Origin: a virus
Lineage: Duplodnaviria > Caudoviricetes
Length of the DNA stretch: 64,000 nucleotides
Direction: 5' to 3' (one strand)
Virus record (IMG/VR): IMGVR_UViG_3300020450_001133
Part shown: piece after piece, positions 1,168-59,572 of the stretch
Layout: the number at the start of each line of letters is the position of its first letter
How positions within the stretch are numbered: the stretch's first letter is position 1
Made by a program: the position numbers and the translations under genes
The notes under the pieces: model-generated
What the model was told of the DNA's origin: nothing
What the model saw: only the letters and a program-made list of their open reading frames with translations
The model's database searches: none

Positions 1168-1905
1168 TTAATCTTTTGTATTGCCTATACTAGGTATAAG
1201 CGATTTTAAACTAAAACCTGAGTTTTCCTCTACTTCAGGTTCAACAGAAGCCTGTTCGTTATCTGCTTTTGCTTCTTCTACTTGTTGTTCTTGTCTTTCT
1301 TTGTTCTCTTCTAACCAACCATCAGGTCCTTTGGGTGCAGTTGCTTCTCTATAATAGTAAATTATATCTTTTTGTTGGTTAATGTATCTTTTTATTTCTT
1401 GCAAGTTAGCAGACATTTTTTCATATCCTACAGGAGTAACTGCAAATATTACAAAGTCACCATCTAACATTAATTCTACTTCTGCTATTTTTTGTTGCAA
1501 GTTACCACATACTTGTATTACACCATTGCCATCTTCTAACTGTGGTAATTCAATTCTATTGCCTTCAGCATCACGTTTTACTTTACGTCTTGTTTCTTGC
1601 TTTTCTTCATCAAAGTATTCTTCATATTCAAATCTTTCTGTAGTGTAATACCATTTGCCTTCTGATAATGTCTTTTTACCTGTTGCAGGTTTGCATGGAG
1701 TGTTGGTAATTACTTTCCATTCTACATCATTAAGTTGAATCTCAGGTGGTAAAGGTGGAGCATAAATCTCTACTTCAACAGTTTCCGTAATTACTTTGAC
1801 TGGAGGTAATGGTTGATATCCTCCTCTAGACGCACATGCAGTCATTAGAACTGTAAGTGCAATAATTGAAAATGTCTTAAATGTTCTGTTTCTTAAAATA
1901 TCCAT
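1168..1905 (-). CDS. Lipoprotein, o-spanin-like, with a large internal insertion
   Basis: Lipobox LMTAC, Pro-rich start, C-terminal GYEKMSANLQEIKRYINQQKDIIYYY as in T4-like o-spanins; downstream of i-spanin-like gene. Confidence 0.65.
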   Translation of the reverse strand: MDILRNRTFKTFSIIALTVLMTACASRGGYQPLPPVKVITETVEVEIYAPPLPPEIQLNDVEWKVITNTPCKPATGKKTLSEGKWYYTTERFEYEEYFDEEKQETRRKVKRDAEGNRIELPQLEDGNGVIQVCGNLQQKIAEVELMLDGDFVIFAVTPVGYEKMSANLQEIKRYINQQKDIIYYYREATAPKGPDGWLEENKERQEQQVEEAKADNEQASVEPEVEENSGFSLKSLIPSIGNTKD

Positions 1906-2045
1906 ATCAATAATAGTGTCAGGACTACTCCTTTAAAAAAAGAAATCCAATATGCTGTGTATTCATCGATGTTTAATTTGTACATCCAATTATCTATTTG
2001 AGTGTTATGCCAATCTCTTAACTTTTCTAATTGTTCACTAATCAT
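1893..2045 (-). CDS. Small membrane protein, 50 aa (not in ORF track)
   Basis: MISEQLEKLRDWHNTQIDNWMYKLNIDEYTAYWISFFKGVVLTLLLIWIF; fills the gap with overlaps to both neighbours. Confidence 0.7.
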   Translation of the reverse strand: MISEQLEKLRDWHNTQIDNWMYKLNIDEYTAYWISFFKGVVLTLLLIWIF

Positions 2046-2475
2046 CTTTTCTCTCAACCTCATCTAAGTTTGCTACTTCTTTACTGTCTTGTTCAACTGC
2101 ATCAAATACTTCCTTTGTTGCATTGTTGGCCCTATCTTCAATCATACCAGGTCTTAACCTAGATAATTTTGTGAAGTTATGGTCTTTAAAAATTTGTTGT
2201 GCGTCTTTGGCTTGTCTTTCCCATTCATTAGACTTAACTGTTAAATCACTAATCTGTTCTATTTGTCTACTTGCAGTTTCTTCTAAACTCTTAATAGTTT
2301 TCTCATTAATCTCAGCCGCACTTTGTAATGCCACATTTTGTTGGTTTAATACATCTATTTGTCTTTGCTGTTGTTCTACAGTTTTGTTTAGGTTGCCAAC
2401 AATAAAACTATGGGCACCCCAGGCAAACAGTAATGCTATTCCTACAAATGGTAATGAACGTATAAAACTTAACAT
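2038..2475 (-). CDS. i-spanin (Rz-like)
   Basis: N-terminal TM helix followed by long coiled coil, ending RPGMIEDRANNATKEVFD. Confidence 0.7.
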   Translation of the reverse strand: MLSFIRSLPFVGIALLFAWGAHSFIVGNLNKTVEQQQRQIDVLNQQNVALQSAAEINEKTIKSLEETASRQIEQISDLTVKSNEWERQAKDAQQIFKDHNFTKLSRLRPGMIEDRANNATKEVFDAVEQDSKEVANLDEVERKDD

Positions 2476-8107: not shown

Positions 8108-10735
8108 GTGGCAAACGAATATAGATATGGTCAAAAAGGTGTATCAACCGACCTTCAATTTGGTAAAAGAGGACCAAGAGTAGTAGCAAACGCAACAACA
8201 TCAGCATTACAAGTGACTGCGGCTGATGGTACTACATTAAGTAATTTAAGAATTGCCAATGCTGTTATCGATTCAGATGCTGTTAATAAAGCACAATTAG
8301 ACGCAGAAGTATCAAATATTTCAACAAATGCATATAATATTACACTAGGATCTGGTGGTGATGGTAGTTTTAGTAGTCCAGGTAGTGTAACAAGTTTAAC
8401 AGGTTCAACAACTGTTTCAGAAGCAATAGATAGATTAAATGAAGTCACAGAGAATATTAGAAACAACACATACGTTAAAAGTGTTGATGCTTCAACAAGT
8501 GCTACCTCAGGTGGTAATCCTTTATCAGTAACATTAACTTTAACAGTTGTAGGTAATGCAAATCAGTTTGATATTGATTGGGGAGATGGTTCATCAGACA
8601 ATGCTACTTCAGATAGTACTCCAAGTCATACATATACGGACAATAGTAACTCTCCTTTTGATGTAGTAATTACAGCAAGAAATACAAATGGTAGTGGAGA
8701 GGGTAGTGAAGCAAGTGTAACTAAAACAAACTTCATAACATTGTTTACAGCAACTCCTGTAGCAGACTTTGAATTATATACAGCAAGTTCAGGTGGTAGT
8801 GCATTAACAGGTAACAGTAGAGAAATAGATGCTGGTGAAACAATTTATTTAAAAAATACAACAACAAATTCAAGTTCAGCAACATGTACATATCAAATCA
8901 ATTGGGGTGATGGTTCAGCAAATACATCAGTAACTTCAGGTGGTACAGGTGATGTTGGACAAGCAAGAGCACCACATACATATACTGCTGACAGTGGTAG
9001 TTCAACAAGAACAATTACAATACAACAAACTGCTCACAGTACTGCAGACCCAGGTGAAGTAGGCAGTACAGCAACTGATATATTAAAAGTTTACAATCCA
9101 AGTATAGCCGCACCAAGTGGATTAAGCAGTAAGACATTAGTGTTTGGTGAAAGTAGTTCAGGTTCAAGTCCAAAACTTGCACATGGATTTACAGACAATA
9201 GTGCAGAAGATTCACAAACTGCAGGATCAAGTGTTACAAGGATAACAAATAGTAGTGCAGGTACAAATACGCAAACAAACATTTTATCATCATTTGCTCA
9301 TAACGGTGATAGTGGAACATTAAAAGCAATAGTTGATGGATCCGATGCAGGTTCAATAACACTCAGTAATGCTGATGATAGTGGTACATCAGGCAACTTG
9401 GTTATAACAGAAGAAAGCGATTATCAATTTTTAAGTACTGCTGGTAGTAGCACATCATTTAGTAGTTCAATTTATTCTCCAGGATTATATCAAGGTTTTA
9501 AAGCAAGAATAAGTTCAACAACTACAAGTTTAGGTGTTGGTACTCACAGTTATAAACTGTCACATAGTACAACTGGTAATACAAATATTCTAAGTTTTAC
9601 CAAAGATGATGTTACATCAAGTCCAACAACTAGCATGACAGGTGCAACATTAGTTCAAGCAAGTGCTGGTACACTAAAATATATCTCAGGTGTTCCTTAT
9701 TACACAAATGATGCAACACTTACATTGGGTGGTGTTACAGTACATGATTGGATTGGACAATGTTATGCAGATACAAGCACACCTTTTACAGTACAAAATG
9801 GTACTAATCTAGAAAGTACAAGTGGTAGTGCAATTGGTACACAAACTTACACCTATGCAAACATAGATGGTTCTACTACGTTTTTAAGTGGTAGTACACC
9901 TAAAGCAAACACAGGTGAAAACAGTGGAGCCGCATATACATTAGGTGATTTAACAGTTAATGTTAATGGTGGTGGAATAGGTATAGAACAATTAAAAGCA
10001 AGAATGTTTAGTGTAAATGGTAATGGTTCTTTTGCAGAACTTACAGGCAAATACATACAAGCATTTAATGGTAGCACAGGTATAGATGAAGAAGCAATAT
10101 CAGTAAGTGATAGTTTAGGTGCTACACATGATGATGACGGAAAGAGAATAACAGGATTTAGTGGATCTGCAGATACTCCAGCATTTGATAGTAGTGTAAA
10201 CAACTATACTGCAAATGTATGGACTGGTGCTCAAACAGTAGCAGGTACATCAGAAGCAATTACACGTTGGGGAAGTATAAAACATTTTGATACAGATTTA
10301 AGTAGTAGTGCTTACTTGCCAGCAGGACCAGATTTGAATACAGGTAGAAGTGGAGCACAATATTTTACTTTTGCATTTAGAAGAAGTACAATGAGTAACT
10401 TTACTGTAAGACTTTCAGGTACAGTGAGTGGATTCTTTATAGCCGCTCCAGGCACAAGTATAGATAGTGCAAGTACACTTAATGGTTGGGTAGATGCAGG
10501 AACAACATACGGTGGGTCAGGTACTCCTGGTGCTGACACAGGCAATGGTGGTAATGGTTCAAATGGTGTTGCATTTACATCAGGTGACAGAATTATAGAC
10601 GGAACAAGTTATAGTAATGATACATTCACACTTACATTAGGTGACCAGAATGCATCAAACAGTACAGGTAATAATATACTTGTAAGAATAAAATTAGAGG
10701 ACGGTGACTCCTTAACAGCATTGAGTATTGAATAA
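8108..10735 (+). CDS. Virion structural protein with PKD/Ig-like domains (tail or baseplate associated)
   Basis: S/T/G-rich; two PKD signatures (IDWGDG, INWGDG...HTY); TAAATA at 8074-8079; GTG start with SD AGG. Confidence 0.8.
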   Translation: MANEYRYGQKGVSTDLQFGKRGPRVVANATTSALQVTAADGTTLSNLRIANAVIDSDAVNKAQLDAEVSNISTNAYNITLGSGGDGSFSSPGSVTSLTGSTTVSEAIDRLNEVTENIRNNTYVKSVDASTSATSGGNPLSVTLTLTVVGNANQFDIDWGDGSSDNATSDSTPSHTYTDNSNSPFDVVITARNTNGSGEGSEASVTKTNFITLFTATPVADFELYTASSGGSALTGNSREIDAGETIYLKNTTTNSSSATCTYQINWGDGSANTSVTSGGTGDVGQARAPHTYTADSGSSTRTITIQQTAHSTADPGEVGSTATDILKVYNPSIAAPSGLSSKTLVFGESSSGSSPKLAHGFTDNSAEDSQTAGSSVTRITNSSAGTNTQTNILSSFAHNGDSGTLKAIVDGSDAGSITLSNADDSGTSGNLVITEESDYQFLSTAGSSTSFSSSIYSPGLYQGFKARISSTTTSLGVGTHSYKLSHSTTGNTNILSFTKDDVTSSPTTSMTGATLVQASAGTLKYISGVPYYTNDATLTLGGVTVHDWIGQCYADTSTPFTVQNGTNLESTSGSAIGTQTYTYANIDGSTTFLSGSTPKANTGENSGAAYTLGDLTVNVNGGGIGIEQLKARMFSVNGNGSFAELTGKYIQAFNGSTGIDEEAISVSDSLGATHDDDGKRITGFSGSADTPAFDSSVNNYTANVWTGAQTVAGTSEAITRWGSIKHFDTDLSSSAYLPAGPDLNTGRSGAQYFTFAFRRSTMSNFTVRLSGTVSGFFIAAPGTSIDSASTLNGWVDAGTTYGGSGTPGADTGNGGNGSNGVAFTSGDRIIDGTSYSNDTFTLTLGDQNASNSTGNNILVRIKLEDGDSLTALSIE

Positions 10736-17927: not shown

Positions 17928-18719
17928 CTATTTATCGTCTTTAGCAATGATGCCTGCACGTTCTACATACAAAGGCATAGCATGATCCGATACAAAATCA
18001 AAGAATTTGAATTGTTTTATTGCCGCCCAAATACCTCTCCATTGGTCTTTTACTCTTTGCCAATAAGTCATAGTTCTAATTTTTCCATGATGATTAATAT
18101 ACATTAATTTACCACCATGTACAAATAATAACCACGTAGGTGGTACACTAGGAACAATATCGTTGTTATTAACATAACGAATGTATGCACCAATATCGCA
18201 ACCCTCTAGGTGCTGACGGAACAATCTATTTCCTACTCTCGGTTGCCCATAAGTTCTAAGTTCCTTCACTGGAATACCTTCGTGTGTTAATGCTTCTGCA
18301 ACTAATACTGCCATTGCTCCACCTAAACTGTGACCAATAACATATACGTTTTCCTGTTTCTTTCTGTTTGCTTTTACAATTTCTAATACTTCATCAAATA
18401 TTAAATTAGTGTATTCATAAAAGCCTGCATGTACTCTACCGTTACGTGGATGTCTTACTGGATATGTTTTTAAATCTGCTAGTATGTCACTGAACTTAGT
18501 TGGTTCTGTGCCTCTACATGAAACAATAATACCATCGTCTCTTGTAAAAAACACCCATGCTTCTGCATCGCCATCTTTTACAAGAACTGCTTTCTTGCGT
18601 TTCATTTTAATTTGATTTTGAGCATCTTTTAACTCTTGCTCACTGAGATATGCCCTACCAGCCAACTTGGCTAAAACAGCCGCACGTTCGCCTTCGGAAC
18701 AGTCTGCTAACCATCCCAT
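17928..18719 (-). CDS. Class 3 lipase (start moved to ATG 18719)
   Basis: RGTE, RVHAGF, GHSLGGA nucleophile elbow, TYGQPRVG, DIVPSVPP, C-terminal DH; SD AGGAG; late promoter 18761-18766 lies inside the track's longer start. Confidence 0.92.
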   Translation of the reverse strand: MGWLADCSEGERAAVLAKLAGRAYLSEQELKDAQNQIKMKRKKAVLVKDGDAEAWVFFTRDDGIIVSCRGTEPTKFSDILADLKTYPVRHPRNGRVHAGFYEYTNLIFDEVLEIVKANRKKQENVYVIGHSLGGAMAVLVAEALTHEGIPVKELRTYGQPRVGNRLFRQHLEGCDIGAYIRYVNNNDIVPSVPPTWLLFVHGGKLMYINHHGKIRTMTYWQRVKDQWRGIWAAIKQFKFFDFVSDHAMPLYVERAGIIAKDDK

Positions 18720-18778
18720 AATTACTCCTACATAATCATAATAGATTTCTATTATAGCAGTATTTATCTTTAAGTCCA

Positions 18779-18810
18779 TAAAAAAAGGGGCCTTATTAGA
18801 CCCCCTTTCT
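18779..18810 (-). terminator. Probable Rho-independent terminator
   Basis: AAAGGGG...CCCCTTTTTTT on the minus strand. Confidence 0.7.
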
Positions 18811-18836: not shown

Positions 18837-18941
18837 TTAGCACTCCTTAGGATTGGCTTTACAATACCTTTTTAATTCTTTTATTAAAAGTTTTATATCA
18901 CCATCTATGCCATTCTTGTCTGAATGGCTTAGTCCTTTTTT
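18837..18941 (-). other. -1 ribosomal frameshift signal and trans-frame extension
   Basis: A_AAA_AAG (18941-18935), 6-nt spacer, GCCATTC-AGACAA-GAATGGC hairpin (18928-18909); -1 frame open for 32 codons with no start codon of its own. Confidence 0.7.
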
Positions 18942-19213
18942 TCCGGAGTTTCTTTATCTTGTAATTCGTCGGTTTGATTATCAATTTCGTCACTGACAGT
19001 TTCTATTACACCACTAGAGACTTTCGCCGCTGTTGCTGTAATGTCTGATACATCTTCTAAAACTGCTGTACTTACAGTAGCAACACCTTTAACAGAACTA
19101 TCTATTACGCCTGTTGTGAAATCTTTTCCACCTTCAATGACTGCTCCAACTGAGGCACATGATGGTAGTAATACTAAACCAAGGATTGCAAGAAGTGAAT
19201 AAAGTTTATCCAT
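18929..19213 (-). CDS. Lipoprotein with probable programmed -1 frameshift extension to 18837
   Basis: Signal peptide ending LVLLPSC; ends ...GAA AAA AAG GAC TAA followed by a hairpin. Confidence 0.8.
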   Translation of the reverse strand: MDKLYSLLAILGLVLLPSCASVGAVIEGGKDFTTGVIDSSVKGVATVSTAVLEDVSDITATAAKVSSGVIETVSDEIDNQTDELQDKETPEKKD

Positions 19214-19283
19214 ATCTTCTCCTGATTTATGTTATAAGCCAACTGCTATATAACAGTAATATTTATCATTATAACTGTATATT

Positions 19284-58170: not shown

Positions 58171-58541
58171 TGAAACTTAATGAAGTAATAGTTCAAGAGC
58201 AAACTGAAGAAGAAATAAAAGCAGAATTAAAAAGGCTTGAGCCTATTGCTGATAAGTTTGAATTTGCACAAAGTGAAGCAAGAGATATAACCAAAGCAAT
58301 CAAATATGAAAACACTACTATGGAAATAATGATTGGTCTCAGTGGTCTTGCTGACAAACTTGGAATAGATGAAAGAGAATTAGACTACTATGAAAGTAGA
58401 GTACGTGAAGCAAAAAATCAATTAGAGTCTGCAGTTTATGAGATGGAAGAATTATTTGCTGACAAGTATAGTGATGTAAGAAACAAAATTGATGAACTAG
58501 AAATGGATCTAGAAGATTTAGAATACGAGAGAAACAGATGA
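58170..58541 (+). CDS. Acidic coiled-coil protein, probable head/scaffold (start moved to ATG 58170)
   Basis: MKLNEVIVQE; TAATG coupling with lysozyme. Confidence 0.65.
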   Translation: MKLNEVIVQEQTEEEIKAELKRLEPIADKFEFAQSEARDITKAIKYENTTMEIMIGLSGLADKLGIDERELDYYESRVREAKNQLESAVYEMEELFADKYSDVRNKIDELEMDLEDLEYERNR

Positions 58542-59572
58542 AACTAAGTGACTTTAACGAATCATTCAAACACTATCAAGTAAAACACAAAAGAAGTGGT
58601 AAAGTCTATAAAGTGACTGCTATGCATGATAAGAGTGCAAAAGAAAAAGCCAGAGCACAACATGGTGGATCTGCATCACGATACACTGGGTCATCAATGG
58701 ATGATTTTGAAATTGTTGAAGGCATATTTACTAAACATAGTGATGATCCTATATCAGGTGGTGGACAATCAAGTCCAAGAAAACCAGTTCCTGTAGAAGG
58801 ACAAGTTATTACTTTAGATAATGAAAGATATAAAGTTATTAAAGTATCCAATGATAGAAAAACTTTTGATGTTGTAAATGTTAAAGATCCTAGTGAAAGT
58901 CATTTTGGAATTAAAGTTGACAAAAATCCGTTTTTCATAGAAGGCAGAAAGAAACAAGTTAAAGCAAATAGCAAAAAACCTAAATTAATAAAACCAAATA
59001 GAGGACATGAAAGTCCACATCCTTATCAAGGTAAACTAGTTGGTGAAGAAAAAAACAAAATGCCAAAGCAGTCTAATCCAGTTGCAAAACATTCAAGAAA
59101 TAAAAGTGGGGCAGGTGCTCACAAATCAATTAAAGACTACGATAGAAAAAAAGAAAAACAAGATTTAAAAAAGATGAACTTTGATGAAGCAGATTTTGTT
59201 GCATCAAAATCAGCAGTAATAGATTCTATTCTAAAAAAACTTAAAGATGAAGCACAAGAAGATGATAAATTGTTAAGACATTTAGCAAAACTTGTAAAGA
59301 AAGATGCTAAACCAAGATTTCATAACAAACCACAAGGGAGATTTACATTATCTCCTCTAGAAGAAGAAATGAAAAATGTTTGGGAAGTTCGTCAAATAAT
59401 GACAGAAGAAGAATTTGACGAAGCGGCAGGTAAGAAAGATGCCTGTTATCACAAAGTAAAATCCAGATATAAAGTTTGGCCCAGTGCTTACGCCAGTGGT
59501 GCATTAGTACAATGCAGAAAGAAAGGTGCGGCTAATTGGGGCAACTCTAAAAAGAAAAAGAAGAAAAAATAA
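58538..59572 (+). CDS. Mosaic basic/acidic protein, probable internal head polyprotein
   Basis: MKLSDFNE; modules separated by hydrophobic-x-E sites; ends with the CYHKVKSRYKVWPSAYASGALVQCRK module. Confidence 0.6.
   Translation: MKLSDFNESFKHYQVKHKRSGKVYKVTAMHDKSAKEKARAQHGGSASRYTGSSMDDFEIVEGIFTKHSDDPISGGGQSSPRKPVPVEGQVITLDNERYKVIKVSNDRKTFDVVNVKDPSESHFGIKVDKNPFFIEGRKKQVKANSKKPKLIKPNRGHESPHPYQGKLVGEEKNKMPKQSNPVAKHSRNKSGAGAHKSIKDYDRKKEKQDLKKMNFDEADFVASKSAVIDSILKKLKDEAQEDDKLLRHLAKLVKKDAKPRFHNKPQGRFTLSPLEEEMKNVWEVRQIMTEEEFDEAAGKKDACYHKVKSRYKVWPSAYASGALVQCRKKGAANWGNSKKKKKKK

What the first reader, a model, noticed from the sequence alone, without database searches (positions are those of the whole stretch)
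18837..19213. Programmed -1 ribosomal frameshift giving two forms of a phage lipoprotein
Seen: the lipoprotein ORF ends ...CCG GAA AAA AAG GAC TAA on the minus strand. It contains the heptamer A_AAA_AAG (18941-18935), then exactly 6 nt, then a perfect 7-bp hairpin GCCATTC-AGACAA-GAATGGC. The -1 frame has a TAA four codons before the slip site and no start codon, yet stays open for 32 codons (GLSHSDKNGIDGDIKLLIKELKRYCKANPKEC*). It fills most of the gap before the terminator at 18779-18810. Established: A_AAA_AAG plus a stem-loop 5-8 nt downstream is the bacterial -1 PRF signal of dnaX and IS3-family elements; the usual phage PRF case is tail assembly chaperones. Inference: a membrane-anchored lipoprotein is made as a short form and a long form with a helical YC-x6-C tail (possible disulfide), at a fixed ratio. 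I do not know of this being described for a lipoprotein.
Basis: partly seen in the sequence, partly recalled or inferred. Interest (0 to 1): 0.85.

Follow-up and report, generated by a model that had tools for sequence, protein, structure and literature searches.

The report
Conserved frameshift in phage lipoprotein gene
A small membrane-anchored protein of widespread, uncultured marine phages is almost certainly made in two sizes, because some ribosomes slip back one base at the last codons of its gene; the slip signal is textbook, but the gene family and its use here appear undescribed.

Summary
The 94-aa lipoprotein gene (19213..18929, minus strand) ends with an in-frame A_AAA_AAG. Six nt later comes a 7-bp hairpin, and the -1 frame runs 32 codons without a start codon.

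The heptamer alone proves little: it occurs in frame five times in this window. The comparison with relatives decides the case.

- Of 178 related marine loci, 165 carry a slippery heptamer in the last 1-3 codons. It is A_AAA_AAG, G_GGA_AAG, G_GGA_AAC, C_CCA_AAA or C_CCA_AAC. One more locus has a degenerate site.
- Every complete -1 extension ends in a conserved helix plus a two-cysteine loop, spaced C-x6-C or C-x5-C.
- The 12 loci without a heptamer have no extension.
- pN/pS is 0.10-0.28 in the -1 frame and 0.85-2.1 in the other frames.
- The hairpin covaries.
- No in-frame fused homologue was found.
- A metatranscriptome contig covers exactly this gene with an unedited A7 run.

The mechanism is canonical -1 programmed frameshifting in a new gene family. 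The protein's function is unknown; I suggest a lipid-anchored helical stalk with an optional disulfide-looped tip.

First readers of this scan noted the same feature in three other genomes. No paper describing it was found.

The parts
19260..19267 (-). Late-promoter-like motif GATAAATA upstream of the lipoprotein gene
   Evidence: The motif occurs 12 times in the window against 5.4 expected, several of them just upstream of predicted gene starts. A metatranscriptome contig starts at 19254, 6 nt downstream of it. That it is a promoter is an inference.
19219..19223 (-). Shine-Dalgarno-like AGGAG, 5 nt before the ATG
   Evidence: Read directly from the sequence.
18929..19213 (-). 0-frame ORF: short form of the lipoprotein, 94 aa including signal peptide, with its stop at 18931-18929
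   Evidence: It has 139 homologues in metagenome protein sets. Cys19 and the residues after it (CASVGAVIEGGK) are invariant or nearly so.
19157..19213 (-). Signal peptide (residues 1-18) and lipobox-like L-P-S-C, with the lipidated Cys19 codon at 19159-19157
   Evidence: Basic N-terminus, hydrophobic core and an invariant Cys in all relatives. Pro at position -2 is atypical for a lipobox. No signal-peptide predictor was available.
18935..18941 (-). Slippery heptamer A_AAA_AAG in the 0 frame
   Evidence: It is conserved in frame in 141 related loci. Other loci have G_GGA_AAG (20), G_GGA_AAC, C_CCA_AAA or C_CCA_AAC.
18909..18928 (-). Stimulatory hairpin: 7-bp stem, 6-nt loop, starting 6 nt after the heptamer
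   Evidence: z = -3.3. Among 9 close relatives all cells are paired and two pairs change on both sides. The longer hairpin of sister clades has 92% of cells paired, and 5 of 11 pairs change on both sides.
18840..18935 (-). -1 frame extension of 32 codons (residues 94-125 of the long form): linker, amphipathic helix, and Cys118-x6-Cys125
   Evidence: Conserved as protein in all complete relatives. pN/pS is 0.28 and 0.10 in this frame. AlphaFold2 models a helix at residues 101-120 with pLDDT 68-84.
18837..18839 (-). Stop codon (TAA) of the long form
18779..18810 (-). Terminator-like hairpin (AAAGGGG / CCCCTTT, 11-nt loop) followed by a T run
   Evidence: Read from the sequence. The consensus scan did not call it because the loop exceeds 8 nt. 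The RNA contig ends at 18804.

Best explanation
This is a programmed -1 ribosomal frameshift at the 3' end of a late-expressed phage lipoprotein gene.

Most ribosomes read GAA AAA AAG GAC and stop, which gives the 94-aa precursor (about 75 aa once mature and lipidated). A fraction pause on the hairpin that begins 6 nt downstream. Their two tRNAs slip back one base on A_AAA_AAG, and they read 32 more codons. This gives a 124-aa precursor with the same lipid anchor and body plus a C-terminal tail: a linker, an amphipathic helix and a C-x6-C loop.

Shown here by computation: the signal, its conservation, purifying selection on the -1 frame, and structural covariation.

Inferred, not shown:
- that both products accumulate;
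- their ratio;
- that the two cysteines form a periplasmic disulfide;
- that the body is an oligomeric helical stalk, anchored in the host envelope, whose tip is either bare or carries the tail.

The biological role is not established. It may be envelope remodelling, superinfection exclusion, or an accessory role in lysis or curli-like functions.
For: 1. The anatomy is exactly as described.

2. Of 178 related loci from IMG/VR, JGI, ENA and Tara assemblies, 165 have a canonical X_XXY_YYZ heptamer in frame within the last 1-3 codons. It is A_AAA_AAG in 141, G_GGA_AAG in 20, and G_GGA_AAC, C_CCA_AAA (two loci) and C_CCA_AAC in the other four. One further locus has A_CAA_AAG. Among loci that keep the Lys-Lys pair I saw no synonymous variant of the heptamer. 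In this window only 31 of 129 Lys-Lys pairs are AAA-AAG.

3. All 81 distinct complete extensions first tallied carry C-x6-C after a conserved helix. Deeper relatives, down to 36% body identity, carry C-x6-C or C-x5-C.

4. The 12 loci without a heptamer have no extension. One of them (L137) is sister to a heptamer-bearing locus.

5. Nei-Gojobori pN/pS over the extension core is 0.28 and 0.10 in the -1 frame, against 0.85-2.1 in the other two frames.

6. In 74 of 78 distinct sequences the -1 frame has no ATG, GTG or TTG before the conserved helix.

7. A hairpin is present in nearly all lineages, usually 5-8 nt after the heptamer, with a mean z of -2.15. Covariation exceeds all 500 shuffles in one set and 499 of 500 in the other, and pairing collapses to about 27-55% when the 3' partners are slid. 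Three covarying pairs join third codon positions, so the changes are synonymous.

8. A tree of the body needs at least 3 switches between A-type and G-type heptamers. What is kept is slipperiness, not the Lys-Lys peptide.

9. No in-frame fused homologue appeared among 139 hits or in a search of 1.84 billion representatives.

10. A metatranscriptome contig spans 19254-18804 with no gap or mismatch.

11. [quoted passage not shown]
Against: There is no protein-level evidence for the long form and no measure of efficiency.

The host, and hence its tRNA-Lys set, is unknown. A_AAA_AAG is much less slippery in bacteria that also have a tRNA-Lys(CUU) (PMC5009743).

No SD-like upstream stimulator of the dnaX kind is visible.

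The RNA evidence comes from assembled contigs of an RNA library, which drop rare variants and could contain DNA.

The AlphaFold2 model of the body has low confidence (pLDDT about 45), so the stalk idea is weak.

The functional proposals rest only on neighbouring genes and on composition.
Confidence: 0.9

Rival explanations
1. Transcriptional slippage: RNA polymerase adds one A in the A6-A7 run, so a subset of mRNAs encodes the long form in frame. The ribosome does not shift.
For: A +1 A insertion gives the same -1 frame product. Most loci have a run of 6 or 7 A. Thermus dnaX uses this route on A9 (PMC5009743). Assembled RNA contigs cannot exclude a minority of A8 transcripts.
Against: 24 loci use G_GGA_AAG, G_GGA_AAC, C_CCA_AAA or C_CCA_AAC, with runs of only 3-4 A. 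These fit tandem tRNA slippage but not polymerase stuttering. The heptamer is always phased X_XXY_YYZ with the 0 frame, which polymerase slippage does not require. A covarying hairpin sits 5-8 nt downstream, as expected of a ribosomal stimulator. The RNA contig shows A7. To my knowledge, A6-A7 is shorter than the runs used for efficient slippage.
Confidence: 0.04
2. The extension is a separate small gene, translated by its own non-canonical initiation or by termination-reinitiation after the lipoprotein stop. It is not fused to the lipoprotein.
For: The peptide is conserved and under purifying selection, which shows translation but not fusion. One database entry calls the tail alone as a 37-aa ORF (P0132).
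Against: 74 of 78 distinct sequences have no ATG, GTG or TTG in that frame before the conserved helix. No SD-like sequence is evident by eye ahead of it (not scanned). This model does not explain why five different slippery heptamers are kept, in phase, exactly where the -1 frame opens, nor why the extension disappears whenever the heptamer does.
Confidence: 0.03
3. The downstream conservation is that of an RNA element (an attenuator, terminator or sRNA). The open -1 frame is a by-product and the heptamer is incidental.
For: A conserved, covarying hairpin lies in this stretch, and a terminator follows.
Against: Substitutions concentrate at third positions of the -1 frame: variable columns by codon position are 6, 2 and 16 in one clade. 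pN/pS is 0.10-0.28 only in that frame. The most conserved part, the helix plus cysteine loop, lies downstream of the hairpin and has no conserved pairing. The amino-acid motif is kept where the nucleotide sequence has diverged.
Confidence: 0.02
4. Artefact or decay: an assembly indel in a homopolymer, or a lipoprotein gene recently broken by a frameshift mutation.
For: Homopolymer runs are prone to error. One database fragment (P0123) reads through in frame.
Against: The same arrangement is found in 166 loci from many independent assemblies and studies, and in several sequencing runs from 10 studies. P0123 carries a second frame error at its end and looks like a poor read. A broken gene would not keep the downstream frame under selection across lineages whose bodies are only 36-50% identical.
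Confidence: 0.01

Closest known systems
E. coli dnaX tau/gamma -1 frameshift (A_AAA_AAG plus downstream stem-loop)
   Same: Identical heptamer, a stem-loop about 6 nt downstream, and two products sharing an N-terminus (PMC3711429, PMC5009743).
   Different: In dnaX the shift truncates the protein, giving the shorter gamma. Here it extends the protein past the normal stop. dnaX also has an upstream SD-like stimulator, which is not seen here. The gene is unrelated: a cytoplasmic replication factor rather than a secreted lipoprotein.
Phage lambda G/GT and other tail assembly chaperone frameshifts (G_GGA_AAG)
   Same: A phage late gene with a -1 slip near the end of the upstream ORF, giving a minor longer product that shares the N-terminal domain. 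G_GGA_AAG is the heptamer in 20 of the related loci (PMC5009743, PMC10885494).
   Different: The lipoprotein is not a tail gene. It has a signal peptide and lipobox, and its neighbours are small membrane proteins, a lipase and, in relatives, curli-like, FecR or cyclase genes. The extension is only 32-65 aa and carries a cysteine loop.
3'-terminal frameshifts that add short C-terminal extensions to phage structural proteins (T7 10A/10B; Listeria phage A118/PSA cps and tsh)
   Same: The slip occurs in the last codons of the gene, so the short and long forms differ only by a C-terminal tail. The long form is thought to be a minor component of an assembly (from my own knowledge, and from an earlier scan note on an Enterococcus phage).
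   Different: Those proteins are cytoplasmic virion subunits. This one is predicted to be exported and lipid-anchored in the host envelope, and nothing suggests it is part of the virion.
Small phage lipoproteins: T5 Llp (superinfection exclusion) and o-spanins such as Rz1
   Same: Small size, a lipobox, late or lytic-cycle expression, and a functional role for cysteines or disulfides in the periplasm (from my own knowledge).
   Different: No sequence similarity was found: PHROGs, Pfam and tblastn against 50,697 phage records gave nothing. The window already has a spanin pair at 2475-1168. To my knowledge neither Llp nor Rz1 is made by frameshifting.

Membership tests
Bacterial/phage -1 programmed ribosomal frameshift cassette (dnaX / IS3 / lambda G-T type) | X_XXY_YYZ slippery heptamer phased with the 0 frame | tested here: met
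   A_AAA_AAG lies at 18941-18935 in phase. Relatives keep it or carry one of four other canonical heptamers at the same place.
Bacterial/phage -1 programmed ribosomal frameshift cassette (dnaX / IS3 / lambda G-T type) | Downstream stimulatory RNA structure about 5-9 nt after the heptamer, supported by covariation | tested here: met
   A 7-bp stem lies 6 nt downstream, z = -3.3. Pairing is 100% and 92% of cells in the two clades, with pairs changed on both sides, and collapses when the 3' partners are slid. The main stems start 5-8 nt downstream in most lineages.
Bacterial/phage -1 programmed ribosomal frameshift cassette (dnaX / IS3 / lambda G-T type) | -1 frame ORF that opens near the site, lacks its own start codon and is conserved as protein | tested here: met
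   The -1 frame is closed 4 codons upstream of the site, then open for 32 codons with no start codon. pN/pS is 0.10-0.28 in that frame only. The helix and cysteine loop are conserved.
Bacterial/phage -1 programmed ribosomal frameshift cassette (dnaX / IS3 / lambda G-T type) | Upstream SD-like stimulator (present in dnaX and some IS elements, not universal) | tested here: not met
   No GGAG or AGGA lies 6-14 nt upstream of the heptamer in the window, nor in the printed 30 nt upstream of most relatives. This feature is optional for the class.
Bacterial/phage -1 programmed ribosomal frameshift cassette (dnaX / IS3 / lambda G-T type) | Two protein products demonstrated, dependent on the slip site | not testable with these tools
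   This needs a reporter assay or mass spectrometry. Only transcript coverage is available.
Bacterial lipoprotein (Lgt/LspA substrate) | N-terminal signal peptide ending in a lipobox with an invariant Cys | tested here: met
   The N-terminus (MDK), a hydrophobic core and L-P-S-C are present, and Cys19 is invariant or nearly so across the aligned relatives. Relatives show FVGC, AASC and TQGC variants. Pro at -2 in the window is atypical. No dedicated predictor was run.
Two-component spanin, outer-membrane subunit (Rz1 / T4 PseT.2 type) | Sequence membership, or being the only lipoprotein partner of an i-spanin in the genome | tested here: not met
   The protein has no PHROG or Pfam spanin hit. 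The window has a separate pair: a TMD plus coiled-coil protein at 2475-2038 (phrog_739) and a Pro-rich lipoprotein at 1905-1168 (phrog_812, E = 2e-13). However, in three distant loci the phrog_812 homologue sits directly upstream of the small lipoprotein.
Curli (type VIII secretion) components | Homology to CsgA-G | tested here: not met
   The lipoprotein has no Pfam curli hit. Curlin-repeat, CsgF and CsgG genes are only neighbours in relatives, and they are absent from the window.

The most novel reading that the evidence does not exclude
The frameshift may work as a stoichiometry device for an envelope structure. On this reading the lipoprotein body forms an oligomeric, lipid-anchored helical stalk, comparable to Braun's lipoprotein or the stalk of trimeric autotransporters, which its sequence resembles. 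The slip frequency would then set how many stalks, or subunits per stalk, carry a disulfide-looped tip that binds a host or phage envelope partner. Abundant marine phages would thereby tune late-infection envelope properties such as superinfection exclusion, spanin timing or curli-like 'sibling capture'. This would be the first recoding-controlled exported lipoprotein.
Probability: 0.2. Interest if true: 0.8.

Novelty: new member of a known kind. Interest (0 to 1): 0.64.

Why it matters
Well-supported frameshift sites in phages are largely confined to tail chaperones, a few capsid and tail subunits, and transposases. This adds a deeply conserved case in an exported lipoprotein of abundant uncultured marine phages, whose relatives carry the curli-like gene cluster described for pelagimyophages.

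Gene callers annotate only the short form everywhere: none of the 139 database homologues, nor any hit in the representative search, includes the tail as a clean in-frame fusion. A conserved 32-65 aa module with a cysteine loop is therefore missing from every protein catalogue.

The family is also a natural experiment in slip-site evolution. It shows five interchangeable heptamers, at least three independent switches, and losses coupled to loss of the tail. Its compact cassette of about 60 nt could be tested directly in reporters.

Finally, it points to an unstudied late envelope function in phages of streamlined marine bacteria.

Tried and rejected
- **Cultured phages.** blastn and tblastn against 50,697 phage records found no homologue of the region or the lipoprotein, even at E = 10.
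- **Cellular genomes.** A GTDB species-genome scan found none either, so the family looks purely viral and metagenomic. Atlas clusters are 100% viral.
- **Family assignment.** Pfam, PHROGs and the Atlas gave no family for the lipoprotein, only sub-threshold 'Senescence' and DUF6726 leads.
- **Whole genome.** No whole genome is held for this window.
- **One consensus structure.** I therefore analysed the clades separately.
- **Combined alignment.** An alignment holding both body rows and tail rows misplaced the tails. The AlphaFold2 job therefore used body rows only, and the tail was folded without alignment depth.
- **Homotrimer prediction.** The job on the mature short form returned 'no answer' (score 0.00). 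It counts neither for nor against oligomerisation.
- **P0123.** This fragment looked at first like a natural in-frame fusion. It has a second frame error at its end and was set aside as a poor sequence.
- **O-spanin idea.** It was raised by an Rz-like gene next to distant relatives. I rejected it as the main reading because the window has its own spanin pair elsewhere.
- **Curli, FecR and CHASE2 neighbours.** These neighbours of relatives are absent from the window.

Full report
**What is in the window**

On the minus strand, a 94-codon ORF (19213..18929) starts 5 nt after an AGGAG. It encodes a protein with a basic N-terminus, a hydrophobic core and L-P-S-C, that is, a lipoprotein-type signal peptide. 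Its last codons are CCG GAA AAA AAG GAC TAA. The heptamer A_AAA_AAG (18941-18935) is therefore phased X_XXY_YYZ with the reading frame.

Six nucleotides later a perfect 7-bp stem with a 6-nt loop begins (18928-18909). Folding of 18950-18880 gives -14.7 kcal/mol, z = -3.3. The -1 frame is closed by a TAA four codons upstream of the heptamer and holds no ATG, GTG or TTG. It stays open for 32 codons to 18837 (P0001), 26 nt before a terminator-like hairpin and T run.

**Is that more than chance?**

Taken alone, only moderately.
- AAA-AAG accounts for 31 of 129 Lys-Lys pairs in the window's ORFs.
- In-frame A_AAA_AAG occurs five times in about 55 kb of coding sequence.
- The other four sites are followed by -1 frames of 1-5 codons, and none has as stable a downstream fold (-0.1 to -9.4 against -12.6 kcal/mol), so this site is the outlier.

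The weight of the argument comes from relatives.

**Relatives**

The long form, read with X at the break, found 139 homologues in metagenome protein sets. Nearly all are 87-97 aa and cover only the body.

I fetched 178 loci:
- 80 from IMG/VR;
- 80 from JGI, ENA and Tara metagenomes;
- 18 by exact protein look-up.

No homologue exists in 50,697 cultured-phage records or in GTDB species genomes. Atlas clusters of the family are 100% viral. The window itself is a large phage genome. It holds SUF, ClpX, FabF-like and NadE genes and a spanin pair, and one protein is distantly similar to phiCbK-like jumbo phages.

**The slip site is conserved as nucleotides**

- 141 loci have A_AAA_AAG in phase. It is followed either directly by the stop or by one codon and then the stop.
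- 20 loci have G_GGA_AAG directly before the stop.
- Deeper relatives, with bodies 36-49% identical, have G_GGA_AAC (L176), C_CCA_AAA (L175) or C_CCA_AAC (L177). P0130, whose body is 51% identical, has G_GGA_AAG (L090).
- One locus (L174) has A_CAA_AAG, one substitution away from its close relative L124, and keeps the extension.

Among loci that keep the Lys-Lys pair I saw no synonymous variant of the heptamer, although synonymous sites nearby are close to saturation (pS 0.74). A maximum-likelihood tree of the bodies needs at least three switches between A-type and G-type heptamers. The tree rests on few columns, but the relevant branches are well supported. What is preserved is the ability to slip, not a Lys-Lys peptide. 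According to the review PMC5009743, A_AAA_AAG, G_GGA_AAG and C_CCA_AAG are highly shift-prone in E. coli, and G_GGA_AAG is the lambda G-T site.

**The -1 frame is a conserved protein**

All 81 distinct complete extensions first tallied end in a conserved amphipathic helix followed by Y-C-x6-C. Typical endings are ...DIKxLIxQIKKYCxxNPxEC(E), or in one clade ...LLEAMMLYCSEFPQKC.... In the alignment of 50 tails (A7, 49 locus tails plus the P0123 fragment), Cys118, Asn121 and Pro122 are invariant. Asp106, Ile107, Lys108, Leu110, Tyr117, Glu124 and Cys125 are nearly so. One more distant locus has His in place of Asn. The deepest relatives have longer tails of 63-65 aa, ending in a cysteine pair spaced C-x5-C.

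Pooled Nei-Gojobori estimates over the 21-codon core:

| Clade | pN/pS, -1 frame | pN/pS, other two frames |
|---|---|---|
| First clade | 0.28 | 1.08 and 1.71 |
| Second clade | 0.10 | 0.85 and 2.13 |

In the second clade the variable columns by codon position are 6, 2 and 16.

In 74 of 78 distinct sequences there is no start codon in that frame before the helix. The tail can therefore only be reached by ribosomes that come from the lipoprotein frame.

**Loss goes with loss**

Twelve loci, with nine different C-termini, have no slippery heptamer. None of them has the extension. The stop is followed at once by a terminator or by the next gene. L137 is the clearest case. It is sister to heptamer-bearing L024. 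It reads CCT AAA CAG GAC TGA where relatives read CCA AAA AAG GAC TAA, and a terminator follows immediately.

Conversely, no in-frame fusion of body and tail was found among the 139 hits or in a full HMMER pass over 1.84 billion representatives. The one apparent fusion, P0123, has a second frame error and looks like a poor read. The absence of fused genes suggests that both forms are needed, as in other programmed frameshifts.

**The hairpin**

In nearly all lineages a stable stem starts 5-8 nt after the heptamer. The stem sequences differ between clades. The mean z-score against random windows of the same loci is -2.15.

For 27 distinct sequences with the long stem (alignment A3):
- 92.3% of cells pair, against 84.2% in shuffles, and none of 500 shuffles reaches the observed value;
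- 5 of 11 pairs change on both sides;
- pairing falls to 42-55% when the 3' partners are slid.

Three covarying pairs (columns 18/39, 21/36, 24/33) join third positions of -1 frame codons. The double changes there, for example TCC/AAG to TCT/AAA, are silent in the protein and so point to selection on the RNA.

For the window's own clade of 9 sequences, all 63 cells pair and two pairs change on both sides. The clade whose stop directly follows the heptamer has a different structure that starts 8 nt downstream, with two compensated pairs.

**Expression, and the homopolymer question**

The stretch is held by sequencing runs of 10 studies. A contig from a metatranscriptome library covers 19254-18804 with no mismatch or gap. 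That span runs from 6 nt downstream of a GATAAATA motif (12 in the window against 5.4 expected) into the terminator-like hairpin. It matches a monocistronic late transcript carrying an unedited A7 run.

This is contig-level evidence and cannot exclude rare A8 transcripts. Polymerase slippage is nevertheless unlikely as the general mechanism. Twenty-four loci use heptamers with only 3-4 A, and the strict phasing and the covarying hairpin are features of ribosomal shifting.

**What the protein may be**

AlphaFold2 on the long form, with 121 body homologues in the alignment, gave a low-confidence body (pLDDT about 45, modelled as one long helix at residues 37-81). The tail helix at 101-120 is more confident, pLDDT 68-84.

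The body sequence resembles 14 repeats in the stalk of a 2,783-aa trimeric autotransporter adhesin. This hints at a coiled-coil stalk, but a homotrimer prediction returned no answer.

The mature short form has no cysteine apart from the lipidated one. The long form has exactly two more, so an intramolecular periplasmic disulfide closing an 8-residue loop is a reasonable inference.

Neighbouring genes vary.
- In the window they are small membrane proteins and a class-3 lipase.
- Among 82 loci with distinct lipoproteins, a curlin-repeat protein is nearby in 31, a FecR-domain protein in 15 and a CHASE2 cyclase in 10. CsgF and CsgG are nearby in one of the loci examined. This recalls the curli-like cluster reported in the hypervariable region of pelagimyophages (PMC7029224).
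- In three distant loci a spanin-like lipoprotein gene lies directly upstream. The window has its own spanin pair 17 kb away, so the small lipoprotein is not simply the o-spanin.

I therefore commit only to this: a late, exported, lipid-anchored protein made with and without a disulfide-looped tip. The role remains open.

**Comparison with what is known, and novelty**

The cassette meets every testable defining feature of a bacterial -1 programmed frameshift: a phased heptamer, a spaced and covarying stem-loop, and a start-less conserved -1 ORF. It lacks only the optional upstream SD-like element.

It works like dnaX and lambda G-T. In outcome it most resembles the 3'-terminal extensions of T7 10B or the Listeria phage capsid and tail proteins. 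The gene family is unrelated to any of these.

I found no mention of a frameshifted lipoprotein in full-text searches, the GeneTack survey, the PRFect paper, the first 300,000 characters held of the 2016 recoding review, or the pelagimyophage papers. Subscription-only literature was not searched. First readers of this scan independently noted the same feature in three other genomes. This agrees with the distribution found here but is not independent evidence.

**Verdict**

This is a real, deeply conserved recoding site and a new member of a known kind of mechanism. My confidence is about 0.9 that a -1 shift makes a long form. I have low confidence in any specific function.

Noticed in passing
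L015:1663-2787 (also 30 other related loci); L002:310-1512; L012:3414-5498; L091:3441-4707: Related viral contigs carry genes next to the lipoprotein: a 265-374 aa protein with Curlin repeats (Pfam E = 1.8e-13), a FecR-domain protein, a CHASE2 adenylate/guanylate cyclase and, in one locus, CsgF and CsgG. The pelagimyophage paper (PMC7029224) reported CsgF and CsgG but said CsgA/B equivalents were missing. These curlin-repeat proteins may be those equivalents.
   Followed up: partly
window 1168-2475, minus strand: A spanin pair lies here. A 145-aa protein with an N-terminal TMD and coiled coil is at 2475-2038 (phrog_739 and phrog_89). A 56-aa membrane ORF follows. A 245-aa Pro-rich lipoprotein is at 1905-1168 (phrog_812, E = 2e-13). 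Homologues of the latter sit directly upstream of the small lipoprotein in L177, L175 and L092/L093.
   Followed up: partly
window 59167-59173, plus strand: Another in-frame A_AAA_AAG lies inside the 344-aa ORF 58538-59572. An 11-bp interrupted stem-loop starts 6 nt downstream (-9.4 kcal/mol), and the -1 frame stops after 3 codons. This is dnaX-like geometry that would truncate the protein at about codon 212. Conservation was not checked.
   Followed up: no
L081-L083:3264-3400 (the clade ending SKPE): This clade has no heptamer and no reachable extension. Even so, the -1 frame downstream reads ...AKYCCEKGNC..., overlapping the start of the next gene. It could be a remnant of the tail motif or chance.
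   Followed up: no
P0126 (2,783 aa, metagenome protein): This trimeric autotransporter adhesin (YadA stalk and anchor domains) has a stalk with 14 stretches about 32% identical to residues 23-75 of the lipoprotein body. That suggests the body is a coiled-coil stalk unit. Composition bias may inflate the match.
   Followed up: partly
window 18719-18779, minus strand: A second GATAAATA (18768-18761) lies after the lipoprotein terminator and inside the listed start of the lipase ORF (ATG at 18779). The lipase probably starts at the ATG at 18719, which is preceded by an SD-like sequence (GGAG), and has its own late promoter.
   Followed up: no
window 18941-19005: DNA contigs of two independent runs (X9, X12) break between 18941 and about 19005, immediately upstream of the heptamer. 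The RNA contig runs through. This probably reflects strain microdiversity in the 3' part of the body, while the slip cassette is shared.
   Followed up: no
window 8108-10735: The 875-aa protein (phrog_8578) has its only cultured-phage relatives, about 33% identical, in phiCbK-like and Bertelyvirus jumbo phages of Caulobacter and Brevundimonas. This hints at the lineage of this marine phage.
   Followed up: no
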